Positions 5,624 to 30,362 of a stretch of DNA of 38,401 nucleotides are shown here, in pieces. The DNA is from Bilabrum cf. latius (taxonomy: Eukaryota), in NCBI GenBank assembly GCA_965178125.1, contig OZ237778.1, positions 1 to 38,401 on the forward strand. Reading direction: 5' to 3'. The notes below the pieces were generated by a model that searched no databases, had not been told where the DNA came from, and was given only the letters and a program-made list of their open reading frames with translations. Made by a program: the position numbers and the translations under genes. The stretch's first letter is position 1. Each line of letters starts with the position of its first letter.

Positions 5624-8050
5624 ATGGGACGTTCAGGACAAAAGGTGAATCCAGTAGGTTGAAGAGTAGGTATTTATCGAAAATGAAAAAATAGTTGAAT
5701 TCAAAACAAACTAAATTATAAAGATTTATTATTAACAAGTATAAACACTTCAAAATTATTACGTTCGTTTTTACGTTTCGGTAAAAAACGACGATTATTC
5801 TTTTTTAATTATAATTTACTTAATAATAATAATTTAGATATCTTTTGTTTTTTTACTAGAATAAAACGTAAAAAAATGAAATTTAGGCAAAAAAAGAAAA
5901 AAATTAAAAGGTATAATAGAAAGTTGCAACAGTTGATGTTAAATTATTATGAAAAAAAATGAGATGTTTTTTTTAGTAAAAAACGATCGAAAATAAAGAA
6001 AATTAAACAAAAACACACAAAGCTCCAAAATGATTATAATAATTCTTTTTATTGACTTTATTTTAACAATTTGAGAAAATTTCAAAAGAATAAATTTAAA
6101 TCAAAAAAACCTTTGAAACTTTTTCAAAAGAGTAAAATTAAATCAAAATTGAAACAAAAGAAAGGTATATATAAACGAAAATTTTGATATTTTCGAGAAT
6201 GATGATTTTCAAAAGTAAAAAGAAGATCTTTTAGAAAATCTAGATTAAAGAACAAAAAATTTAATAAAGTTGAGTTGAAATTAAAACAACGAAATTATAA
6301 GAATAAACGAATGATAAATAAGATAAAAAAAAGAAAAACTTATTATTATCATTTTTTTTATAATATTGAATATTTTAGTTTATATTTTTCTTTTAATTTA
6401 TTAAATAACTTTCCTAAAACTTTCAGCACAAAACACAGAGATCATTTAACTTTAGCGATTTTAAAAGAATTATTCTTAAAATCATTTTTATTCTCTAATA
6501 ATTTGTTTAAATATAGTATTTTACATTTAAATTACAAAAAGTTAGAATCCTTTCAATCAGAATTTAACATAAGTTACGAAACAAGCTATATTCACAAGTT
6601 GATAATGAATAAATATAACTTTCATTATCAAGATAAAAGTTTTTTTAAACATAAATTAACTTACAGTGATAATTTTTTTGCTGTTAATAAAAAACATTCA
6701 ATAGGTAAAAGAATTTTGAATAAATTTAGCTTTAATAACAATCTTAGACATAATATTTTTAAGAAAACAGCACGATCAAATCTAGTATACCAAAGTTATT
6801 TTATAAATTCTCGATATAATTTTAATCAATTATTTTTTAATAATTTAACTTTTTATGATAAAATCATAAAGTCAACAATTAAAAATATTTCTAGAAATAA
6901 AATTTTTCCAAGTTTAAAACTTTTAAGTTTTTTAAAGTTAAATAATTTGTATTCTTTACGTTTATCTTTTTTTTATAAAAAACCAAATCTTTTTTTTACC
7001 AATAAAATTTTACAAAAAACTTTTAAATTTAATAACTATGTATTAACCAATGTGAAAAAGAAAAAAAAAATTTTAAACATTTATAATACTACCAAAATTT
7101 TCTTTAAGTATAAATATTTGAAAAATCCTTTAAAATTAATTAAAAGTAGTTTAAATATTTTGACTGGATATAATACTGACGTTTTTTTTGGATCTGTTAA
7201 TTCGTTATACAAATTTTCTCGAAAAAAATATTGAGATCCTGACAATTTAAAAAAATTACCCACCTATAGACAAAAGTTATATTTAAAACAGATACGCTTA
7301 CGTAAATACGAATTGAAAAAATTAGTTTTTAAATTTTATCGTCGAGTACGTAGACGTTATATACAATTAAAAAATTTAAAATTTTTACTTCGATTATGTA
7401 TGTTAACAAGTTTCGTTAAACGCCCTATAATCTTTGCTCGGTATTTTTGTTATCAAATACATAAATTTCCTAAAAAATATAGACAAATTCCTTTTTTAAA
7501 ATACGTGATGTCTATATTCTTAACATTATCTAAAAGAAAAGAAATTTTAGGATCAAGGATACAAATACAAGGACGGTTTGATAAATGAAGAAGATCAAAA
7601 ATCATTATAAAAGAAAGCGGCATTTTGACTACACGTAAAAAGTTTTTTTTTATAGAATACGGAAGCGCCTCAAGTTTTATAAAAAAAGGGAGTTTTGGCA
7701 TAAAAATTTGATTATCATATAGTTCTAAATTTTCAAATTTTTATAAAAAGTGTTTAAATTCTTATTTTAATTATTCAAATTTTTATAAAAAAAATATTTT
7801 AAAAAAGAAAAAATTGTTGAATAATTTTTTTCAAAATAAAACATTGTTAAAAAAAGAAAGAAGAAAAAGAAAAAATAAATTTAAATTTAAACAAAAACAT
7901 AGCAAATATAGAAAGAAAAAAATTACTTCTAAAAATAGATTAAAAAAGAATTCTAATTCAATCACTTATTATTGAAATTATAAAAAAATAAAATGGTTAT
8001 TACAACAAAATAAGATTACTGAATTAGTAAATTTAGGTAATTTAGCTTAA
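5624..8050 (+). CDS. rps3: Ribosomal protein S3, greatly expanded (808 aa)
   Basis: N-terminal GQKVNPVGWRVG; C-terminal domain ILGSRIQIQGRF...GSFGIKIW; single frame open throughout with UGA=Trp. Confidence 0.9.
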
Positions 8051-8063
8051 AACTTAAATTTAA

Positions 8064-8477
8064 ATGAATTTTAAACCTAAACAATGAAAAAAAAAAAAAA
8101 ATAGTAAACAACGTTTAAGCTTATTAAAAACAAAACGTTCATGTGTAAATGAGCATGGAATTTATGCGTTAAAAGCAATAGAACCTGGCAAATTATCTTT
8201 AAGTACAATCGAAGTTATTAGGCGCTTTATAATGAATAAAACAAAACGTAAATCAAAACTTTGATCGAGAATTTCTCCAGATAGTCATATGACTAGAAAA
8301 CCTGCTGAAGTTAGAATGGGAAGAGGTAAGGGAGCTATAGATCACTGATTCGCGCGCATAAAAAGAGGGCAAATTATTTTTGAAATAAATATGAATCAAT
8401 CAAACCTTTTAAAAAATTTATTAAATAAAATTGATCATAAAATTCCTTTTAAAAGTAAAATTATAAAAATAAAGTAA
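8064..8477 (+). CDS. rpl16: Ribosomal protein L16
   Basis: TRKPAEVRMGRGKG...W...GQIIFE; absent from the ORF track because of TGA codons. Confidence 0.96.
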
Positions 8478-9736
8478 TGAAAGAGTTACAAAATAAAAAT
8501 AATTCGAAAGAATTACAATTGCCTGTAAAAAAATATGAATCTTTTTCATCAAATCGTATTTTTTTTATCGAACAACTTTTGGGTATTTTACAATTTACCA
8601 TTAAAAAAGGGTTAAAAAAAAAATTAAAAAGAGAACTGAATTTATTATTATTAGAATTATATAACAAAGATAACACATTTTTTTATAAATTCAATAAAAG
8701 GTTAATTCGGTATAAACAACCATATAAAACTGTATCAAAACGAAAAAAAAAATGAAAACGTAGATTATTTTCGGTGAAGCAAAAAGAATTTAGAGTAACT
8801 CCGTTTCTAAAAAAAAATTTTTTTACAAAGAATTTTAAACGTTTTTATAGAAGACGACCTAAGAATTATTTGATTTTTTTAAATTCTAGAGAACAAATGC
8901 ATAACATTAAAAAAATTTATATAGATTTAGTAAAAGGTGAAACAACCTCTCAATTTAGAAGCACTGTTTCGAAACAAATAAAATTTTTTTTTAATATAAA
9001 ATCTCTAAAAACACAAAAAAAGATAGGATGAATAAAATATTTAATTCGTAAATATTTAAGACAAAAATATCCAAATAAAAAATTTTGAAATCGTTACAAA
9101 ACACCAGTACATTATTCAAAAAAATTCATATATAAACGTAAGTTAAAGTTTAGGTTATTAAGAAAAAAAAGAAGAAGTAAGTTGTGACGTTTTCTAAAAT
9201 TAAAAAATAAGCATAACGGTTATAATTTCAGTAATTTAAAAACAATAAATACAAAATCTTTAGTTAAAGCAAAAACATATATATCTAATTCATCAAAACG
9301 AAGTAAAAATTTATCAATTTATAACAAGTACTTTTATTATAAATTCGCCAAAAAAGTTAAATTTAATAGAGAAGGGCATACTTGAAAAAGAGTTTATTCT
9401 ACTGAATCATTACAAACTTATCAAGTTGTTTTTTATAGTTCTGATAAATACAATTTAACTAAAGTTCAAAAATATATAAAAAATTTATTAAAAAATAATT
9501 TAAAAGTTAAATTACTTATACACCCTATACAAAAAAAAGTAAAAAAAGTAACTGTTCTTAAATCACCTCATGTCAATAAAACAGCACGAAGTCAATACGA
9601 TCAAGTTAATTATAAATTACGAATAGAAATACAAAATAATAATTTAGTAAATAAAAAAAGAATATATTTAATTTTAGTTAAACTAAAAACTTATTTTTCT
9701 TTTTTAGATTTTTCTTTTAAATCTGTATTACTTTAA
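8477..9736 (+). CDS. rps10: Ribosomal protein S10 with ~300-aa N-terminal extension (419 aa; possible rps7-rps10 fusion)
   Basis: C-terminal TVLKSPHVNKTARSQY S10 signature; frame open from the ATG overlapping the rpl16 stop (TAATG). Confidence 0.85.
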
Positions 9737-9737
9737 A

Positions 9738-9810
9738 GTATTTCTAGCTCAACCGGAAGAGCTTTGACCTTCTAAGTCAATGGTTATGGGTTCAAATCCC
9801 ATGAAGTACT
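9738..9810 (+). tRNA. trnR: tRNA-Arg(TCT)
   Basis: Acceptor GTATTTC/GAAGTAC; anticodon arm TTGAC-CTTCTAA-GTCAA. Confidence 0.93.
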
Positions 9811-9827
9811 ATATATTTAATTTATTA

Positions 9828-11135
9828 ATGAATAATTATTTACATGTTAAAAATACTAAAGAAAACTTAATAAATAATGATTATAACAATTTTGTCATTT
9901 TATGATTTATATTATTAACTAATTCGGTTTTTCCTTCATTAGATTATAAAAACTTATCTTTTTTTAATTTATCAAATTCTTTATTTATTCGTTTTCAGTA
10001 TCCGGATTTATTTTTTATTTTAATTGAATTTTTTATTTTAGATATAACTTTATCGTTTTCACAATTAATCGATCTATGCGTGACAGATTATCCTTTTTTA
10101 AAACATCGTTTTGATTTAAGTTATATTTTTTTTTTATTTGATTTAAAATTTTATGTAGTATTAAATATTGCATTAACAGAATTTGGTATAATTAGTACTC
10201 TATTTTATGTATTTTTATCTGCTTTATGATCAGAAAGAGAAGTTTGAGACAGTATGGGTATACGTTTTTCAGAAAATCCTGGAATGCGTCGAATTTTAAG
10301 TGATTATGGTTTTCATGGACATTATGGGCGTAAGGATTATCCTTTATTGGGTACTTATGAATTACATTACAGCGAAGCTTTAAAAATTATTGTAAAAAAG
10401 ATTCCTTCATTTAGTCAAATGATGAGAACATTTATCTTCAAAGATTTGAATAACGTGGAACAAACAAATTTATCTTTTAAATCTTCTATATTTTTTATCT
10501 GTTTTAGTTGATTTAATTTTATTTCTCTAGATTTTTTGTTTTTTTTTATATTAATTTTATTCTTTGTTTTGTGAGTGTCTTTAATAAGTTTTGCTCCCTA
10601 TAAAGATCAAGGAACTTTTTCGATTCAATTTTACACATTATTTTTATTTTTAAGTTTATACTTGTCAGGAAGTTGTGAAAAATTTTATTTTATTTTTAAA
10701 GAACACACTAGTTTAAACAATTTAGATTCAATAAATTTTTTATTTGAATATTTATCATCTTCTAATATATTTTTGTCTTTTTTAAGTTTAATAATATTTT
10801 TTTCCTTTTTTTTATTTTATCAAAAATATTTGAATAAAGATGAAATTATAGATAAAGATATAGTTTTAAACTTGACATTGTTTTCAATATTATTTTTTTT
10901 TTGAATTATAGTAAAAGATTTTATTGAATTATTTTTGATTATAGAAGGATTTGCTTTTTTAAGTTTTATTTTAGTAGCTAGATCTCGTCAAACTAAATTA
11001 GGTTCTTCTGTTGGAATACGTTATTTATTGTTAAGTGGAATTCCTGCAGTGTTTTTCATTTATGGTATAAGTTTTTATTATTATTATACTACTTCTATTT
11101 TATTATATGATATTGATTCATATATTAATATTTAA
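9828..11135 (+). CDS. nad9: Nad9 fused in frame to the N-terminal part of Nad2 (435 aa)
   Basis: Nad9 motifs LIDLCVTDYP, WSEREVWDSMGIRF, RRILSDYGF..RKDYPL; no TAA/TAG before the Nad2-type helices ELFLIIEG...GIRYLLLSG...YGIS. Confidence 0.85.
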
Positions 11136-11143
11136 AAATTCGA

Positions 11144-12238
11144 ATGTCTTTTTATTATGAAAAATTTAAACTAAAAGATTATATTTTTGATGTTATCCAA
11201 TTTTTAATATTTAACTTAACAAAAATTTTGGGGTTAAATATCGTTTTTATATTATTATGGTCTAATTTCGATTTAGAGTTTAATGTAATAGAAGATAATT
11301 TATTTAATCAATCAATTTTTATGATAGAAAAAAATTTAATATCATGAAGATCTATAATAAATGATTCATTAATTGATTATACGATAAATTACAACAACTG
11401 AAATTTATTATTTTTTTGAAGCATAAGTTCAATATTATTTTTATTTTTGTTTAAGTGAGCTGCTTGACCTACTTATAATTGAGCTATTTTTATTTATAAT
11501 ATTTCTAATACAGGAGCAGCAGGTTTTTTATCTTTTTCAATGAAATTTGTATATGGTATCTTTATTTTAATTTTGAACATTTATCTTTTTAACTATTTAG
11601 ATATGTTTTGAAGTTTACTTTTACTAATGATAAGTATTTTCAGTTCTTTATTTGCAGTTTTAGGCGCTGTGAATGAACGTTTTATTAAAAAATTTTTACT
11701 ATATAGTTCTTTAGGTCATGTAAGTTTTATGTTACTAGGATTAGTTTACTTTTTAAATGGTGGCTTTGAAATGTTATTTCTATATTTGGTTATTTATACT
11801 TTAATGTCTAATATATCATGGTTATTTTTAGTTTCTTCATTACAAAATATTAAATTATTAAATTCATTTGTACTTTCTTTAAATAATGATACAATTTCTA
11901 AAGTAATTATAAGTTTAATGTTATTTTCTTTAAGTGGTTTACCTCCTTTTAGTGGTTTTTTTGTAAAATTTGAAATGTTATTATTATCAATATATAGTTC
12001 TGATTATATATTAGTTATAGTTTTACTCATTTTAAGTTTAATTACTCTTTTTTATTACATACGTATAATAAAAATAATCTTTTTCGATAAATTTGAGTTA
12101 TCAAAAAATTTAGGTGTAAGAGAAAATATATTACAACTTTTAATTAGTTTCAGTTTTATTTGTGTTATTTTTTTTATACTTTTTTTTGATTATACTATGG
12201 TATATTATTTAAAAAATTTCATAAATTGTTTTTTTTAA
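11144..12238 (+). CDS. nad2: NADH dehydrogenase subunit 2, C-terminal part (364 aa)
   Basis: FLFKWAAWPTYNW (cf. FKLGAAPFHFW), IKKFLLYSSLGH, SLSGLPPFSGFFVKF, FYYIRIIK. Confidence 0.9.
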
Positions 12239-13409: not shown

Positions 13410-14178
13410 ATCTTCAATTTATGATTCTTTAAATTATAAACATTTGATTTTTACACGTTCAATTATAGGACACACTGCAAGTAAAGTTACACGTTTTATT
13501 AATTCATTTATTACTGGATGACGAGGTAATATAGCAATTTTTGACATTTTTTTAATCCGTATATCATTATTAAATTTCTATATTATTCTGAAATGAAGTG
13601 GATATAGGCGGTTGAATTTGTTATTATATTTAAAAGATCAAAGGTTTTTAAATTTAGTTAACCGTAATTGATTATTACATAATAAGAATTATCACGGTTT
13701 TAATAGAAAAAATAGTTTATTAGGACATATATTTACTTCTCATTCATGATTAGGAGGTATTATTTCGAATTGAAATATATGATATTCTTTCTTTGAAAAT
13801 ATAAAAAATCTTGAAGATAAAAAGATACATGTGTCAAAGAGTGCTCAAAGATATCTACGAAAATCACGAGGTTTATTATTACGTCAAGCACATCCATCAT
13901 ATCCTGATTTAGTCTTATTATTAACTAGTGAAAAAATAGCCTTACAAGAAACTTATATAAATTATGTACCTACAACAGGTATATTAGATAGTGATCTGAC
14001 TACGAAAGGATTTAGTTTTTTTATTCCAGGTAATGATGATTCTGTTGACTTTCAATTATATTTTATAGAATTATTACAAAAAAGTTTACGAGAAGGAAAT
14101 TTATTAGAAACTCAAAACTTCTTTTTTTTTTTTTATTATTATTTAAAAAAATTTATAAATTTAAATGATGCATTTTAA
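13399..14178 (+). CDS. rps2: Ribosomal protein S2
   Basis: IGH, FITGWRGNIAIFD, WLGGIISNW, PDL, GILDSD, IPGNDDS. Confidence 0.93.
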
Positions 14179-17100
14179 ACCAAGATATTCTTTATCTTTT
14201 AAGCTTAAAAGTAAAATTTGATCTTATAAAAATTCTCGTTTAAGGTTATTTGTAGATAAACGAGGAAGACGTTTCTTACGAAAAGGACGAAATCAAAGGA
14301 TTAAACGAGTATTAAAAAATATGAAATGAATGACTATTCGTTGACCTTTTGGTTTAAGTTTGAACTTATTGAACTCTCGCAAAAGACGTAAAAATTATAT
14401 ATTTAGAGCACGTTGAAAGTATAAAAGTTTTTTTTTAAGACAACAAGGTTATAGAAAATCTTTAGGTAAAATTAAATATAGAAGGTTAAAAGTAATGTTT
14501 AAAAATATATTAAATAAAAATTTTTTATTTAAATATTTATCATTTTTAAAAAATATAGAATTGCGTTTAGATATATTATTATATAGATTAAAATTTAGTA
14601 TAACTCCCTTTTCTTCAATAACATTATTAAATAAAAAAATATTTTTACTTAATAATAATTTTAATTATAAGTTTAATTCTGTTTGTAGAATCGGAGACAT
14701 TATATCTATTAATTGAAATTTATGAGAACTAGTTCGTTTTATTTTTTTGAGTAAATTACGAATTCGTTATTTTCGTTTGTTTTTAAACACAAAACGTTTA
14801 AATTTTAAATATAAAAGGTATATAAAAAATTATCAATTGAATTATAAAAATATTAATCTTATTCAATTCAAAAACAATAATAAAAATTTAAAACAATTAA
14901 ATAACCTGATTTACTTTGTAAAAACCAATATTTTAAAAAAAAACTTCAAAAGAAAACTTAAGCATGTGTTAATTAACAAAAAATTAAAGTTTGTGAATTT
15001 AAATTTAAAATTAAATAATATATTAAATAATTACTTCTACTATAAAAGGTTAAAAGTTAAAAATTACAATCTTTTTAAAAATAATTATATAATAAAAAAA
15101 ATTAAGTCAAAAAACTTCAAATATTGATTAAAACGTAAGATAAAACAACAGATTAAGTTTAAAAAAAGTTTTAGAATAATAAAAAAAAAAAAAATATTAA
15201 GTTATAAAAATTTTAATAAAAAGAGCAAATATTTTTGATTAAAACGAAAAAACAAAAAAGTTAAAAAAAAGTTTATTGCTCGTAAATATTACAAATCAAA
15301 ATTTCGCCGGTTAATAAAACAATCAAAAAACTTAACAAAAATAGATTCAAAGGTTTCGTTTGTAAAATGAGATAAATTAAAAAAAAATAAAAAAAAATTA
15401 AAATTATTTAAAGTTTATTTTAAAAATTTTATGAAAATGAAAAAAAGTAAAAAAAATAAAAAACGAATAAAAACTTTAAAATGAAAGTTAAATAGGTATA
15501 ATTATAAGCGTATAAATGTTTCTAAAAAAAAAATTTTATTTTCTTTTTTTAATAACACTTCTCAATGAAAGTTAAAAAAACAAAGATGGTTAAAACACTT
15601 TTGATGAATTTCTAATAAATCTTTTAAAAAGAATAGATTAATAAAAAATTGTACGATTAACAAATTTAAATATAATAAAGTATTTGTAAATAATTTCCAA
15701 AAATTTGAAAATTCGAAAATTTTGTTGACAAAATTATCTAATATACGATACAATATTATTAATAAAAATTTTAATAATAAATTAATTAGTTTAAACGAAA
15801 ATAAATTTAATTTGGATATTTGATCAAAAAATTCAAAACCTATGTTAAAAATAAAAAAAAAACACACATATTTTTTTAAAAATTATATGTTTTTTTTTTT
15901 TTCTATATTTTTTAAAATAAGATTAAGACAGTTTTTTAATTCGATAAATCATAATAAAGAAAAAAACTATAATTATATTAATTCCTTAAAAAAAGTCAAA
16001 GGTAATTCTTTATTTGTTTATTTATTAATTATAAAAATAAATTATTTATTGAAAAAAAAACATACATATTCAATACCTTCAAGATTTATTTTTAACAAGT
16101 TTAACTCTGTAATTAAGTTAAAAAATATGAAAAAAAATAAAGTAGAGAGTGTAAAATTTTCTTTTCGATATAATAAATTAAAAAATGTTTTTAATAATTT
16201 TAAATATTTATTATTTTTATTAAAATTTAAACAATTTATAACTATGAATTTTCGATTAAATTCAAAAAAATTAAACTTAATAGATTTTTATGTTTCTGAT
16301 TTTTTGAATTTAGTAAATAATTTCATAAATAAAATATATATATATTATAAGTATTCAAAAGCTAATTCTTTTTTTTTATTCAATTATTCTTTTTGTAATT
16401 TACGAAAAATTAATCAAAATATTTATTTTATTACTTCATTAATGATAAAAAATTTGACTATTAGAAATAATTATAAATTATTTAAATCGTTGCAACATAC
16501 TAATACTTCGGTGTATAATTCAAAAAATACTGATAATTTAAAAAGTAATATCAAAATATTTTATAGAAATATTTTAAAAGAAATAAAAGAATACAGAAGA
16601 GAAATAAGAAAAGATTTAAAATTAAGAAAAAAATATAAAGCTAAAATTATGAGACCAAAAAAAATAGATAAGTTAACCCTTCAACATTTTATATCAAAAT
16701 TTATTTTAAAAATAACTTATAATAATTTTTTATATAAGTTAAATGTTAAAGAAAAAAAATATTTTTTTAAAAAATTAAAACTTTTAAAACTTTTAAATAC
16801 AAAAAAAAACATTAATATTACGAAAAATTTAACTTTTTATCAAAAAAAAAAAAACAAAAAAAAGATAAAGAATCTTTGATCTTTGAAAGTACAAAAAAAT
16901 AATTTTAACACTAAGATAAATAAACGTTTAAAGAATTTTGAAATATATCCTCAATTCAAACTTTCGAAAGTAAGAAAAAAATTTAAAAAAAGGTTTAAAA
17001 AGAGAAATTTAAAGCAATATATAAAAACAAAGTTATTTTTAAAAAGTAAAAGATTAAAAAAAATGAGTAAAGAAAGAATTCGTAGAAGATTATCATTTCC

Positions 17101-17356
17101 TTTAAATAATGCGAAATCATCTAGATTAAGTCGACATGTTTTATTGAAAAATAAACATATTAAGAAATTTAATTTTGACCTATTGAGTATTAAAATGAAC
17201 AATTGATATTACTTACCTTCATTTATTGAAATGAATTTTGAAATTTTAAACTTTATTATCTTAAGTAATCCTTTAACAGAAAATATTTTAACCGGATTTT
17301 CCTATAATTCATTTTTAAAATCTTATATTAGATTTAATAAACGTCAAGGTTTTTAA
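14165..17356 (+). CDS. rps4: Ribosomal protein S4, giant (1063 aa)
   Basis: IELRLDILLYRLKF...RIGDIISI S4 domain; C-terminal LPSFIEMNFEIL; four track ORFs join in one frame through TGA. Confidence 0.88.
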
Positions 17357-17424
17357 TTTTGTTTATGATTTGAAATTGTCTGTTTTTTTATTGTTGTTTT
17401 TCTATTGAGATCATTCAATAGAAC

Positions 17425-17496
17425 GAGAGTGTAGTTTAATGGCAGAACGTTAGTCTTCAAAACTATATGGTAAAGGTTCGAATCCTTTCTCTCTTG
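17425..17496 (+). tRNA. trnW: tRNA-Trp(TCA), reads UGA
   Basis: Anticodon loop CT-TCA-AA; T arm AAAGG-TTCGAAT-CCTTT. Confidence 0.93.
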
Positions 17497-17503
17497 ATTA
17501 ATT

Positions 17504-25943: not shown

Positions 25944-27440
<1,497 letters not shown>

Positions 27441-27445
27441 TTATT

Positions 27446-27670
27446 ATGATGTTTTTATTTAAATCATATTTAAAATTGTTATTGAAATACTTAAGTTTAT
27501 TTATATTTTGTAGTCTATTTTATTTTGATATTTTATTTTTTAATCAAGATAACACAGATAATCTATGAAGCGGTATAGACTTAACTAATCTTGGGTTTCA
27601 GTGAGATACTTTGTGATTATGTGCTCCTATAGTAGAAACTCCCAATATTATATATACTTATATTATATAA
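27446..27670 (+). CDS. orf74, hypothetical membrane peptide; paralog of the orf535 N-terminal domain
   Basis: ATG..TAA with 3 internal TGA (missed by the track); 29/58 aa ungapped identity to orf535. Confidence 0.7.
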
Positions 27671-27679
27671 AAAATTTAA

Positions 27680-29287
27680 ATGACAAATATAACAAAATTA
27701 TTAAGTATTTTTTACTTAAAGTTACAATTCGTAGAGATGGTTTTAGATTGGCTTCAACGCTCATATTTCTATATTTTAAATTTTTTATACAACATTTTTT
27801 TAATGATATTTGAAAATTTTAGATTATTATCATTTACAAATTTTTTTTTGAAATTTTTAAGTTTATCAATATTTTTCATTTTTTTTTATTTCGATACATT
27901 CTTTTTTAATCAAGAAAATACAAGTGTTTTTATTGATGGGGTAGATTTAAGCGAATTTGAGTTTAAATGGGATGAGCTTTTTTTATTAAGTCCTGTTTAC
28001 GAAACTTCTGAATGTTTTTATGTATCTATTAATTGGGATTCGTTTGCATTAATTGATAATATAGCGGATTCCACAAATTCATTGGAAGTAATTAAGCAAC
28101 GAGTATTAAGTCCTTCTTGGTCTGATTATTTTAAAAAACCTTTTCGTTTAATAATTTCATTAGTTAGCGAAGGATTTTATTATATGATGTATATTGAGTG
28201 AACTGTTTTAGAGCACATGTTAGAAATCTTATTTCAAGAAAGTAACGATTCTGAACTTGGTAACAAGGTGGAAAAATTTTTAGAATTATGCAAAACTGAA
28301 ACAGGCAATTTAGCTTGTGTAACAGAAGCTAAATTTAATGAGGCTTTTAAGCCTAAAGATACAAACGATTGAAAAAAGTTAAAAACTATATTAGAAGCAG
28401 CAAAAAAGGGACAGCTTTTAGGACACCAGTCACATAGTACAACGCCTAATAAGGATAAGGTGGCCAAAGAAGTAATTTTTCACCTCAAGAAAGTTCATGA
28501 TAATTCTTGATATAAACTTTTTAATGATATTGGCTTTCATGTTAATCAAAATTGGCCAGTTTATGTAGGCGGTTTTATTGTATTAGGAGCAGCAGGTTGA
28601 TATCATTATGATGAGTGTTTGGGCTGATATAAATATACTTACTCTAGCGTTTGGGATACAATTGAATTGTCGAAAGATCAATTAAGTTGTACAGCCCAAC
28701 AGAGGTACGTTAATTATCACTTTAATAAATTTAAAGCAAACTTTAGCGTAGAATCATACTTTTGAATAGAATTTACTGAAGTTGAATTAACTAATTTTAA
28801 AAATACTTTTTTTTCACAAGGTAATTTCACATCGACAAATTATTATAAAGTAGTTCCTAAAATTTTTAAAAATAGTGTGGGTTCTAATGTATGGGTATCT
28901 ATTTTAAGAGAAAATCCTTTTTTTTTTATGAAATTAAATCAATCAAAAATAATATATATGTCCAATGCAGAAGAAATATTAAATCAATTAGAAAAGTTAT
29001 TTGTTGATGATTACCTTTTTTATAGCGTAGGTTTAGTTATAGGAGGCGTAGGTCTAATAAATTGGGTATTAAATAATTTAGAAGTTATTGATATTTTTTT
29101 AGAAGATAAACTTTTTTTTCTATGAATAATCGAATATTTTGATAATTTAAGATTAATGAGTATACCTTTAAAAGATGTTTTTTTTAAATATGAAGAACAC
29201 AAGGCTTATTTGAATATTGAAAATTTTAAAATTAAAGAAAAAACTTTTAGTGAATGATTAATTTTGTACAAAATTAAAAAATTCTAA
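27680..29287 (+). CDS. orf535, orphan multi-pass membrane protein
   Basis: 1608-nt frame open with UGA=Trp; begins with the AAATTTAAATG start context; TAA abuts the nad11 ATG. Confidence 0.8.
27723..27759 (+). repeat. 37-nt direct repeat shared with the nad11 5' region (29325-29361)
   Basis: TACAATTCGTAG(AG/GA)ATGGTTTTAGATTG(G/A)CTTCAACG, 34/37 identical. Confidence 0.9.
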
Positions 29288-30154
29288 ATGTATTTTTTAA
29301 TTAATCAAGAAATTTTTTTGAATGTACAATTCGTAGGAATGGTTTTAGATTGACTTCAACGTTTATGATTACAAATTCCACGTTTTTGCTATAATGTTTT
29401 TTTAGAGGTAGTAGGGAATTGTAGAATGTGCTTAATAGAACTAGAAAAATTAACAAAACCTACAGCATCATGCGCTGCTTTATTAGTTTCCAATATTTCT
29501 TTATATACTTACAGTCCTTTTGTAAAAAAAGTACAAGAAGGTGTTATGGAATTCGAATTAAATAACCATCCTTTAGATTGTCCTATTTGTGATCAAGGAG
29601 GAAAGTGTGACTTACAAGAATATTCAAAAAGTTTTGGTACAGATCGAAATCGAAACTTTCAATCTTTGAGACGTCCTGTCCAAGAAGATTCTACAGAACC
29701 TATTATAAAAATGACCATGGTACGTTGTATTCAGTGTACCCGTTGTATACGTTGCTTTAATAACTTTACTAATAAATACTTTTTGGGTACTTTTGGTAGA
29801 GGGGTAGACACAGTAATCGGTAGTTATTTAGATTATTTTTATCAATTAGAATATCTAAATTTTGTAATTAATTTATGTCCAGTAGGGGCATTAACTTCAA
29901 ATACAAACTCGTTTGAAGATAGAAATTGAGAATTAAAAAGTAAAACAAGTAGAAGTGCTTTAAGTAGTACCTCTAATAAATTAAATTATCAATACAAACT
30001 TCGTTCTAGTACTTCAATAGGATCCTCTAATTTAATGTTTGAAACAAATGTGGAAAGTTTATTAAATAAATATTATAGCTCTTTTTTGGGTATTTGATCT
30101 TTATTAATTTCAGATAAAGAAGTTAACGAAACCAGTAAAGAACATAGGAGCTAA
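29288..30154 (+). CDS. nad11: NADH dehydrogenase subunit 11, N-terminal Fe-S part only (288 aa)
   Basis: IPRFCY, GNCRMC, HPLDCPICDQGGKCDLQ, RCIQCTRCIR, CPVGALTS, RNWEL. Confidence 0.93.
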
Positions 30155-30160
30155 TATTCT

Positions 30161-30228
30161 GGCAGTACGATATGGTATCAGTGCGGGTTCATGCCCCGGA
30201 ACGGATGGTTCAATTCCATCTATTGCCC
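30161..30228 (+). tRNA. trnM: tRNA-Met(CAT), initiator-like, reduced D arm, copy 1
   Basis: Acceptor GGCAGTA/TATTGCC; CGGG-TTCATGC-CCCG; T arm GATGG-TTCAATT-CCATC. Confidence 0.8.
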
Positions 30229-30362
30229 TGTTTATTGACAGAAATTTATTAAGGTATTAATATAAAAAGAGTACCTCAAGTTTTTTAAGTTTAAATGGAT
30301 AATAAAAATATAAAGATTAAAGTTAAAGTTTAAATTTTTCAGTCTTATTGTTCATTAATTAC

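What the first reader, a model, noticed from the sequence alone, without database searches (positions are those of the whole stretch)
27446..28021. Hidden 74-aa ORF is a paralog of the N-terminal domain of the adjacent orphan orf535
Seen: with UGA=Trp, 27446-27670 encodes LKYLSLFIFCSLFYFDILFFNQDNTDNLWSGIDLTNLGFQWDTLWLCAPIVETPNIIY. This aligns without gaps to orf535 LKFLSLSIFFIFFYFDTFFFNQENTSVFIDGVDLSEFEFKWDELFLLSPVYETSECFY (29/58 identical, many conservative swaps). Both frames remain intact despite the divergence. Inference: this may be an undescribed TM-plus-acidic-motif domain (FYFD..FFNQ.NT..G.DL...F.WD...P..ET) under selection, arranged as a short/long gene pair. The short copy could be a partner or antagonist of the long protein; that role is speculative.
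Basis: partly seen in the sequence, partly recalled or inferred. Interest (0 to 1): 0.8.

Follow-up and report, generated by a model that had tools for sequence, protein, structure and literature searches.

The report
Eroded duplicate of orphan mitochondrial gene
The small reading frame after cox1 in this protist mitochondrial genome really is a copy of the start of its large unknown neighbour, but it looks like the worn-down first copy of an old tandem duplication and not a newly found gene pair.

Summary
With UGA=Trp, orf74 (27446-27670) matches residues 51-117 of orf535 (31/67 identical, E 3e-11). The DNA is 75% identical over 105 nt.

Residues 12-50 of orf535 copy the first codons of the adjacent nad11 (20/39 identical, E 1e-9), and the cysteines in that stretch are lost. 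The order is orfX-start, nad11-start, orfX-start plus rest, nad11. That is what a roughly 1.6-kb tandem duplication of [orfX + about 48 nad11 codons] would leave, with orf535 as an in-frame nad11::orfX chimera.

Only one related organism has homologues. It has a 535-aa orthologue (77% identical). Directly after its cox1 it has a 317-aa frame with the orf74-type start and the C-terminal half of orfX. The upstream copy therefore shrank independently, to 317 aa there and 74 aa here.

No family, fold or homologue outside these two species was found. orfX is an orphan predicted membrane protein. It is unresolved whether orf74 still works: its first 36 codons look constrained between the species, but dN/dS and frame openness do not decide it. 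I rate the interest as modest.

The parts
25944..27440 (+). cox1 (498 aa). It ends a few residues after the last membrane helix and lacks the conserved C-terminal tail that some Cox1 proteins carry.
   Evidence: Translation. Comparison of C-termini of Cox1 proteins.
27446..27670 (+). orf74, the upstream (first) copy of orfX. It keeps its own ATG ATG start, one hydrophobic segment (residues 9-29) and about 45 further residues. A net 1236 nt (412 codons) is missing compared with the downstream copy.
   Evidence: The deletion size is the difference between the two repeat offsets, 1602 and 366 nt.
27671..27679 (+). 9-nt spacer AAA ATT TAA, in frame with orf74. It gives a second TAA directly before the orf535 ATG. 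It may be the last codons and original stop of the first orfX copy.
   Evidence: Sequence and alignment. In a fixed register, the last 24 nt before the orf535 ATG-end match the last 24 nt before the nad11 ATG-end at 17 positions by my own count. This is suggestive only.
27680..29287 (+). orf535, a chimeric frame made of a nad11-derived head plus full-length orfX (the second copy). It lies in the same reading frame as orf74 and nad11.
   Evidence: The orthologue P0005 is 77% identical over 100% of the length.
27711..27823 (+). Relic copy of the nad11 5' coding region, forming orf535 residues about 12-48. The cysteines in the matching nad11 stretch are replaced.
   Evidence: Repeat D1, 72% identical to 29313-29425. 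BLASTP 20/39 identical, E 1e-9; RFCY becomes NFLY and GNCRMC becomes ENFRLL.
27723..27759 (+). 37-nt core of the nad11-head repeat. It is 34/37 identical to 29325-29361, well above the 72% of the whole repeat. The peptide it encodes is identical in the relative's orf535.
   Evidence: only these 2 matches in the window, 0 expected. Peptide. No convincing RNA fold (z -1.3 and +0.3).
27818..27829 (+). Duplication junction. nad11-type similarity ends at 27823 and orf74-type similarity begins between 27818 and 27829.
   Evidence: Ends of repeats D1 and D2. Alignments.
27830..28030 (+). The segment of orf535 (residues 51-117) that is paralogous to orf74 residues 7-73: a hydrophobic anchor plus an acidic stretch.
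   Evidence: tblastn 27830-28030, 46% identical, E 1.2e-9.
28031..29287 (+). The rest of orfX. The middle part (residues 118-275) is 83% identical to the orthologue. The C-terminal half (276-535) is 75% identical to the orthologue and 56% to the relative's 317-aa copy. There is a hydrophobic segment at 446-464.
29288..30154 (+). nad11, carrying the N-terminal iron-sulphur part only (288 aa). Its first roughly 48 codons (29313-29425) are the source of the orf535 head.
   Evidence: Pfam Fer4_Nqo3, NADH-G_4Fe-4S_3 and a weak Fer2_4 hit..

Best explanation
orf74 is the eroded upstream copy left by an old tandem duplication of about 1.6 kb. The duplicated unit ran from the first codons of a lineage-specific orphan gene (orfX, lying between cox1 and nad11) to about codon 48 of nad11.

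The duplication produced the order: cox1, orfX copy 1 (own start codon), [nad11 codons 1-48 joined in frame to orfX copy 2], complete nad11. Copy 2 lost its own start codon at the junction and now begins with the borrowed nad11 start; this is orf535. Copy 2 stayed full length in both known species.

Copy 1 was cut down independently. In the sister species it is 317 aa (start plus C-terminal half). In this genome it is 74 aa (start plus the next roughly 35 residues), through a net in-frame loss of 412 codons.

orfX itself is an acidic, mostly helical protein with an N-terminal hydrophobic anchor and one or two further hydrophobic segments. I infer that it is a lineage-specific inner-membrane protein under moderate purifying selection.

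I put about 60% on orf74 being a relic with no function of its own. I put about 30% on it still being made as a small single-pass membrane peptide.

Shown: the two repeats, their order and offsets, the chimera, the relative's 317-aa copy at the same position, and the absence of outside homologues.
Inferred: the duplication mechanism, the direction of loss, membrane location, and present-day function.
For: (1) Two direct repeats lie in the order a tandem duplication predicts. orf74 matches orf535 residues 51-117. orf535 residues 12-50 match nad11 residues 10-48. The DNA repeats are D2 at offset 366 nt and D1 at offset 1602 nt. The difference, 1236 nt, is 412 codons. All three frames share one phase (coordinates).

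(2) The cysteines in the aligned nad11 stretch are lost in the orf535 head, so the head is a relic and not a working Nad11 domain.

(3) Among 5.8 billion clustered proteins only two relatives appear. A profile search of 1.84 billion representatives adds only one spurious hit at E 4e-4. P0005 is 535 aa, 77% identical, and keeps the nad11-type head. P0006 is 317 aa.

(4) P0006 begins like orf74 (26/36 identical). It continues with the C-terminal half of orfX (150/265 identical to P0005, E 3e-99).

(5) In run X8, one contig of a relative runs from the cox1 3' end into the orf74-type start up to window position 27549. It then has 322 unlike letters and then aligns to 28751-28867. This places a frame built like P0006 at orf74's position.

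(6) In the 36-column anchor block, copy 1 against copy 1 is 24/36 and copy 2 against copy 2 is 27/36. Copy 1 against copy 2 is only 17-20/36. The duplication is therefore older than the species split, and there has been no recent gene conversion.

(7) The two species kept different parts of copy 1. That fits independent deletions from a full-length ancestor.

(8) Hydrophobic segments and pI of 4.2-6.0.
Against: - The first 36 codons of copy 1 are nearly as conserved between species as those of orf535 (26/36 against 27/36). In my neutral simulations, 10 or fewer changes in 36 codons has P 0.03 at 20% per-site divergence and P 0.0025 at 25%. The cox1 3' part differs by about 9% overall in the relative (59 differences in 650 nt). 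If those differences are mostly at third positions, neutral divergence is about 25%. That points to continued constraint on the copy 1 start, which does not fit a dead relic.
- A 74-codon frame surviving the observed divergence without a stop has P 0.09 (42 substitutions) to 0.02 (85 substitutions) under neutrality.
- If non-coding, 27441-27679 would be among the longest spacers of this compact genome (gaps read).
- I never saw the relative's DNA as sequence, so no codon-based test between species was possible.
- The match of orf74's 3' end to the 3' end of orfX is weak.
Confidence: 0.8

Rival explanations
1. orf74 is a working gene. It would be a small single-pass membrane peptide (anchor plus acidic tail) kept by selection after truncation, possibly acting with or against the long OrfX protein.
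For: - The frame is intact and has its own ATG ATG start 5 nt after the cox1 stop.
- The first 36 residues are 72% identical to the relative's copy, similar to orf535's 75% in the same block.
- Neutral simulations make that level of conservation unlikely at 20% or more per-site divergence.
- Open-frame survival has P 0.02-0.09.
- Two 151-nt contigs identical to 27537-27687 and 27679-27829 occur in a run that is only guessed to be RNA.
Against: - The relative's counterpart lacks residues equivalent to 38-73, including the acidic motif. What is conserved is therefore not the 74-aa product.
- dN/dS of 0.49 equals the 0.50 of a clearly dead nad11 relic.
- 16 frames of 74 aa or more lie on the gene-free minus strand, and 2.8% of 74-codon windows there are open.
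- Past selection on a longer copy 1 would leave the same conservation signal.
- No protein of 40-130 aa resembling it is in the 5.8-billion-protein collection.
Confidence: 0.3
2. The conserved 5' part of copy 1 is kept as a nucleotide element and not as a protein. It could be a cox1 mRNA 3' end or processing signal, or a leader for orf535.
For: It starts 5 nt after cox1 and is conserved in both species, while everything downstream of codon 37 differs between them. The genome is very compact, so signals must overlap coding-like sequence (spacing).
Against: - The same block is conserved in copy 2, where it is internal to a frame and far from cox1. Protein-level constraint explains that more simply.
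- No RNA family matched the region at gathering thresholds.
- I did not fold this stretch. The only folds were of the nad11-head cores, and they showed no convincing structure.
Confidence: 0.07
3. orf74 and the orfX start encode the missing C-terminal tail of Cox1 as a separate, membrane-anchored piece (a cox1 fission inside the mitochondrial DNA).
For: - cox1 here stops just after its last helix, and orf74 follows directly.
- By eye, the stretch with W, SP/AP and ET resembles the LEW..SPP..HTF tail seen in 11 longer Cox1 proteins (upper part).
Against: - A profile of those 11 tails, searched with all filters off against 514 stop-to-stop frames of the window plus P0005 and P0006, gave nothing above 4.3 bits. 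It did not pick orf74 or orf535; P0005 scored -0.5.
- Most of the closest Cox1 relatives also lack the tail, so its absence is ordinary here.
- The relative's copy 1 lacks the stretch altogether.
Confidence: 0.02
4. The similarity is due to chance, low complexity or mis-assembly.
For: The DNA is 75% A+T and the shared block is Phe/Leu-rich.
Against: - The composition-adjusted E-value is 3e-11.
- The match is in register at DNA level.
- The same architecture is seen in an independent, diverged organism.
- One contig spans the region without differences.
Confidence: 0.01

Closest known systems
Chimeric mitochondrial ORFs that begin with a duplicated 5' piece of a core gene. Examples are the plant male-sterility-type ORFs (recalled, established knowledge) and the fungal and algal accessory ORFs noted earlier in this scan (e1-2936086, e1-2943151, e1-2942017).
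   Same: orf535 starts with a duplicated start codon and about 48 codons of a respiratory gene (nad11), fused in frame to unrelated, lineage-specific sequence that includes hydrophobic segments.
   Different: - The donor gene sits directly downstream, and the fusion is explained by one tandem duplication, not by scattered recombination.
- A second, headless copy of the body survives upstream.
- No phenotype or expression data exist.
Tandem duplication followed by random loss in mitochondrial genomes (a model from animal mitogenomics; recalled).
   Same: A duplicated block in direct order with partial loss of one copy. The two lineages lost different parts.
   Different: - The remaining pieces are still open frames.
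- One junction created a new chimeric gene.
- No gene-order change resulted.
Orphan ORFs of bicosoecid and other stramenopile mitochondrial genomes. PMC6723347 (passages seen) reports six hypothetical ORFs without orthologues in Cafileria and four such regions in Cafeteria, under code 4.
   Same: Code 4, a compact genome, and ORFs with no detectable homologue outside close relatives.
   Different: I did not establish which organism this is. Whether orfX corresponds to any of those ORFs was not tested.
Short or split nad11 in stramenopiles. PMC4824035 (passages seen) reports an N-terminal-only nad11 in Cafeteria, Thraustochytrium and brown algae.
   Same: nad11 here encodes only the iron-sulphur part (288 aa) and is followed by nad1. 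The same arrangement occurs in an unrelated metagenome locus, L078.
   Different: orf535 is not the missing C-terminal Nad11 part. It has no Pfam match even at E 10, and outside the head it shows no similarity to nad11.

Membership tests
Nad11 / NuoG N-terminal 2Fe-2S domain (for the head of orf535) | Detectable homology to the nad11 N-terminus | tested here: met
   20/39 identical to the window's own nad11 residues 10-48, E 1e-9. DNA 72% identical over 113 nt.
Nad11 / NuoG N-terminal 2Fe-2S domain (for the head of orf535) | Cysteine ligands of the cluster retained | tested here: not met
   RFCY becomes NFLY and GNCRMC becomes ENFRLL in orf535. The relative's copy also lacks them. No Pfam hit for orf535.
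Cox1 C-terminal tail (separately encoded Cox1 piece) | Match to a profile of the conserved tail (LEW..SPP..HTF block in 11 Cox1 proteins fetched here) | tested here: not met
   hmmsearch --max against 514 window frames plus P0005 and P0006. The best score was 4.3 bits, on an unrelated minus-strand frame. orfX was not picked.
Head-borrowing chimeric mitochondrial ORF | In-frame duplicated 5' segment of a core gene followed by unrelated sequence | tested here: met
   Conserved in the orthologue P0005.
Head-borrowing chimeric mitochondrial ORF | The chimera is transcribed and translated | not testable with these tools
   No listed holder is on record as RNA. Only two short contigs were found, in a run guessed to be RNA.
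Tandem duplication with partial loss | Direct repeats in the same order, with offsets reconcilable by one deletion | tested here: met
   Offsets of 1602 and 366 nt, a difference of 1236 nt or 412 codons. The order is A, B', A', C, B.
Tandem duplication with partial loss | A longer form of the lost copy exists in a relative | tested here: met
   P0006 (317 aa) sits directly after cox1 in the relative.
Any described protein family or solved fold (for orfX) | Significant profile or sequence match | tested here: not met
   Pfam gave 0 families at E up to 10 for all 4 proteins. The PDB profile search gave 0 hits at E up to 10. AlphaFold models had mean pLDDT 38.7 and 43.2, too poor for a fold search.

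The most novel reading that the evidence does not exclude
orfX founds an undescribed family of mitochondrially encoded membrane proteins. After duplication, its N-terminal anchor module has been kept under selection in a second, progressively minimised gene: 317 aa in one species and 74 aa here. On this reading orf74 is a functional micro-protein, for example an assembly partner or competitor that shares the membrane anchor of the long protein.
Probability: 0.25. Interest if true: 0.55.

Novelty: new member of a known kind. Interest (0 to 1): 0.3.

Why it matters
This is a clean, datable snapshot of how mitochondrial genomes make and lose genes. One tandem duplication created a chimeric gene that borrowed the start of nad11, and it left a redundant copy that two sister species trimmed in different ways. 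For annotators, it shows that orf74 should not be called a new gene on similarity alone, and that the first roughly 48 codons of orf535 are nad11-derived. If orf74 proved to be translated, it would be a rare case of a mitochondrial micro-protein born by truncation. The function of orfX remains unknown.

Tried and rejected
- **Cox1-tail hypothesis.** Rejected.
- **Pfam.** No hits at E 0.01 or at E 10.
- **PDB profile search.** 0 hits.
- **Profile search of 1.84 billion representatives.** Found only the two relatives plus P0007 at E 4e-4. Its sequence is a Ser/Thr/Gly-rich repeat protein unlike orfX, and I judged it spurious.
- **Search for proteins of 40-130 aa like orf74.** None found.
- **Locus scans with the orfX alignment.** Metagenome and viral contigs gave 592 and 589 pattern matches, none confirmed.
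- **80 cox1-bearing metagenome loci (520,105 nt).** No orfX relative by tblastn (best E 0.5) or by profile (best E 0.7).
- **AlphaFold2.** orf535 with a 4-sequence alignment gave pLDDT 38.7. P0006 with a 3-sequence alignment gave pLDDT 43.2. Both are too poor, so I ran no fold search.
- **Protein atlas.** I did not pursue this.
- **Whole genome.** None is held for this window.
- **Expression.** No RNA holder is listed for the stretch. Run X7 is only guessed to be RNA.
- **Runs X5 and X6.** The X5 pieces laid are identical to the window at depth 2, so they add no independent species.
- **RNA fold of the 37-nt core.** Not better than shuffles.
- **Literature.** A search for 'orf535' found 4 unrelated papers (listing only).
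- **Earlier findings of this scan.** Nothing for this genome or this sequence.
- **Complex prediction.** Not used, because its description accepts only table-11 proteins of the window.

Full report
**Context**

The window is a compact, 75% A+T mitochondrial genome or a large part of one (composition). All recognised genes lie on the + strand. UGA is read as Trp: a tRNA with anticodon UCA sits at 17424-17497, and there are many in-frame TGA codons in conserved genes.

Around the finding the order is rnl, nad4, cox1 (25944-27440), orf74 (27446-27670), orf535 (27680-29287), nad11 (29288-30154), nad1, rns. The nad11 gene encodes only the N-terminal iron-sulphur part, 288 aa.

A short, N-terminal-only nad11 is a described state in several stramenopiles (PMC4824035, passages read). 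Code 4 with orphan ORFs is described for bicosoecid mitogenomes (PMC6723347, passages read). I did not determine the organism.

**The observation**

- orf74 residues 7-73 align without gaps to orf535 residues 51-117: 31/67 identical, E 3e-11 with composition adjustment.
- The DNA copies are 75% identical over 105 nt at an offset of 366 nt.
- tblastn finds no further copy in the window.

orf535 residues 12-50 are a copy of nad11 residues 10-48: 20/39 identical, E 1e-9. The DNA, 27711-27823 against 29313-29425, is 72% identical at an offset of 1602 nt. The cysteines in that nad11 stretch are replaced in orf535, so the head is a relic and not a functional domain.

Reading left to right, the region is A (orf74), B' (nad11 head copy), A' (orf74-like segment), C (the rest of orf535), B (true nad11). 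This is exactly the product of a tandem duplication of a unit running from the first codons of an ancestral gene A-C (which I call orfX) to about codon 48 of nad11, followed by loss of C from the first unit.
- The junction lies at 27818-27829, where nad11-type similarity stops and orf74-type similarity starts.
- The two offsets differ by 1236 nt, which is 412 codons.
- orf74, orf535 and nad11 all lie in one phase.
- orf74 is followed by AAA ATT TAA ATG. The second TAA and the bases before it weakly resemble the end of orf535 before the nad11 ATG (suggestive only).
- Copy 2 lost its own start at the junction and now begins with the borrowed nad11 start codon.

**Independent support from a relative**

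The 5.8-billion-protein search returned only two homologues of orf535. The filter-free profile search of 1.84 billion representatives added only a spurious hit.
- P0005 is a 535-aa orthologue, 77% identical, and it keeps the nad11-type head.
- P0006 is 317 aa. Its first 36 residues match orf74 (26/36). Residues 53-316 match the C-terminal half of orfX (150/265 identical to P0005, E 3e-99). It lacks the equivalents of orf535 residues about 84-275.

I laid public contigs on the window. In run X8, a relative about 9-14% diverged in DNA has one contig that runs from the cox1 3' end into the orf74-type start up to position 27549. It then carries 322 unlike letters and then aligns to 28751-28867. 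A frame built like P0006 therefore occupies orf74's position. Other contigs of that run carry the orf535 orthologue and nad11.

In the shared anchor block, identities are as follows:

| Comparison | Identical / columns |
|---|---|
| copy 1 vs copy 1 (between species) | 24/36 |
| copy 2 vs copy 2 (between species) | 27/36 |
| copy 1 vs copy 2 | 17-20/36 |

The duplication is therefore older than the species split and has not been homogenised. The two species retain different parts of copy 1, which implies independent deletions from a full-length upstream copy.

**Is orf74 still a gene?**

The evidence is mixed.

For function:
- It has an intact frame with its own start.
- Its first 36 codons are conserved between species about as well as in orf535.
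- In simulations, 10 or fewer amino-acid changes in 36 codons is improbable if neutral per-site divergence is 20% or more (P 0.03; P 0.0025 at 25%). I can only estimate that divergence indirectly, from 59 differences in 650 nt of cox1 3' end plus orf74 start.
- Survival of an open 74-codon frame under neutral change has P 0.09-0.02.

Against function:
- Nei-Gojobori dN/dS between orf74 and orf535 is 0.49. The dead nad11 relic gives 0.50 against nad11, so this value only reflects one constrained partner.
- 16 frames of 74 aa or more lie on the gene-free strand, and 2.8% of 74-codon windows there are open.
- Earlier selection on a longer copy 1 would leave the same signals.

No expression evidence could be obtained. 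No RNA holder is listed. Two 151-nt contigs in a run only guessed to be RNA span the orf74/orf535 boundary.

I put about 60% on a relic, about 30% on a still-translated small membrane peptide, and the rest on a nucleotide-level role.

**What is orfX?**

No family or fold could be assigned.
- Pfam gave nothing, even at E 10, for all four proteins.
- The PDB profile search gave nothing.
- No relative was found in metagenome or viral contig scans, nor in 80 cox1-bearing protist-like loci. One of those loci has cox1, nad4, short nad11, nad1 with no such gene.
- AlphaFold models were of very low confidence (pLDDT 38.7 and 43.2), so I ran no fold search.

A Kyte-Doolittle scan finds an N-terminal hydrophobic segment, another at 446-464, and in the 317-aa copy a Gly-rich hydrophobic segment. 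The pI is 5.1-6.0, and 4.2 for orf74.

The orthologue pair is 77% identical in protein, at roughly 12-14% DNA divergence in the pieces that aligned. By a rough hand estimate this corresponds to omega of about 0.3. The 260-residue C-terminal domain is kept at 56-59% identity between the old paralogues. Real purifying selection on the family is therefore likely.

I infer a lineage-specific inner-membrane protein. This is inference, not shown.

**A tested side idea**

cox1 ends right after its last helix, and orf74 follows it. I therefore tested whether the orfX start encodes the missing Cox1 tail. A profile of 11 Cox1 tails fetched here did not pick orf74 or orf535 out of 514 window frames plus P0005 and P0006 (all scores 4.3 bits or lower). 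Most close Cox1 relatives also lack the tail. I rejected the idea.

**Comparison with known kinds**

orf535 belongs to the known kind of mitochondrial chimeric ORFs that borrow the start of a core gene. Plant male-sterility-type ORFs are recalled examples. Similar fungal and algal cases were noted earlier in this scan; these are unchecked leads. The pair as a whole is an intermediate of tandem duplication with partial loss.

What is unusual is that the donor, the chimera and the eroding headless copy are all still visible side by side, and that two species show different stages of erosion.

**Verdict**

The function is unknown and the interest is modest.

Noticed in passing
27723-27759 and 29325-29361: A 37-nt core inside the nad11-head repeat is 34/37 identical, against 72% for the whole repeat. 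It includes synonymous positions. The 12-residue peptide it encodes is identical in the relative's orf535. This could be a gene-conversion patch or a cis element near the nad11 and orf535 starts. No convincing RNA fold was found.
   Followed up: partly
9780-11135 and 11144-12238: The nad9 frame is 451 aa, but only residues 89-192 match the nad9 family; the rest is hydrophobic. The next frame matches only positions 73-294 of the nad2-type profile. The N-terminal part of nad2 may be fused to nad9.
   Followed up: no
29288-30154 and 30155-30347: nad11 encodes only the iron-sulphur N-terminal part (288 aa). It is followed by a 193-nt gap before nad1, one of the longest gaps in the window. The molybdopterin-like C-terminal part is not in the window.
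   Followed up: partly
5624-8050, 8477-9736, 14165-17356: There are very long, Lys-rich frames: rps3-like (808 aa), rps10-like (419 aa) and an unassigned 1063-aa frame. Only short stretches match ribosomal protein families.
   Followed up: no
whole window: Only 10 tRNA genes were found in 38.4 kb, so most tRNAs are presumably imported or lie outside the window.
   Followed up: no
25944-27440: cox1 lacks the conserved C-terminal tail (the LEW..SPP..HTF block) that is present in 11 distinct tails among the Cox1 proteins fetched. Most of its closest relatives also lack it.
   Followed up: partly
L078 2053-3576: In an unrelated metagenome mitochondrial contig, a short nad11 and nad1 read as one continuous 507-aa frame under code 4. 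This is either a possible nad11-nad1 fusion or a missed stop.
   Followed up: no
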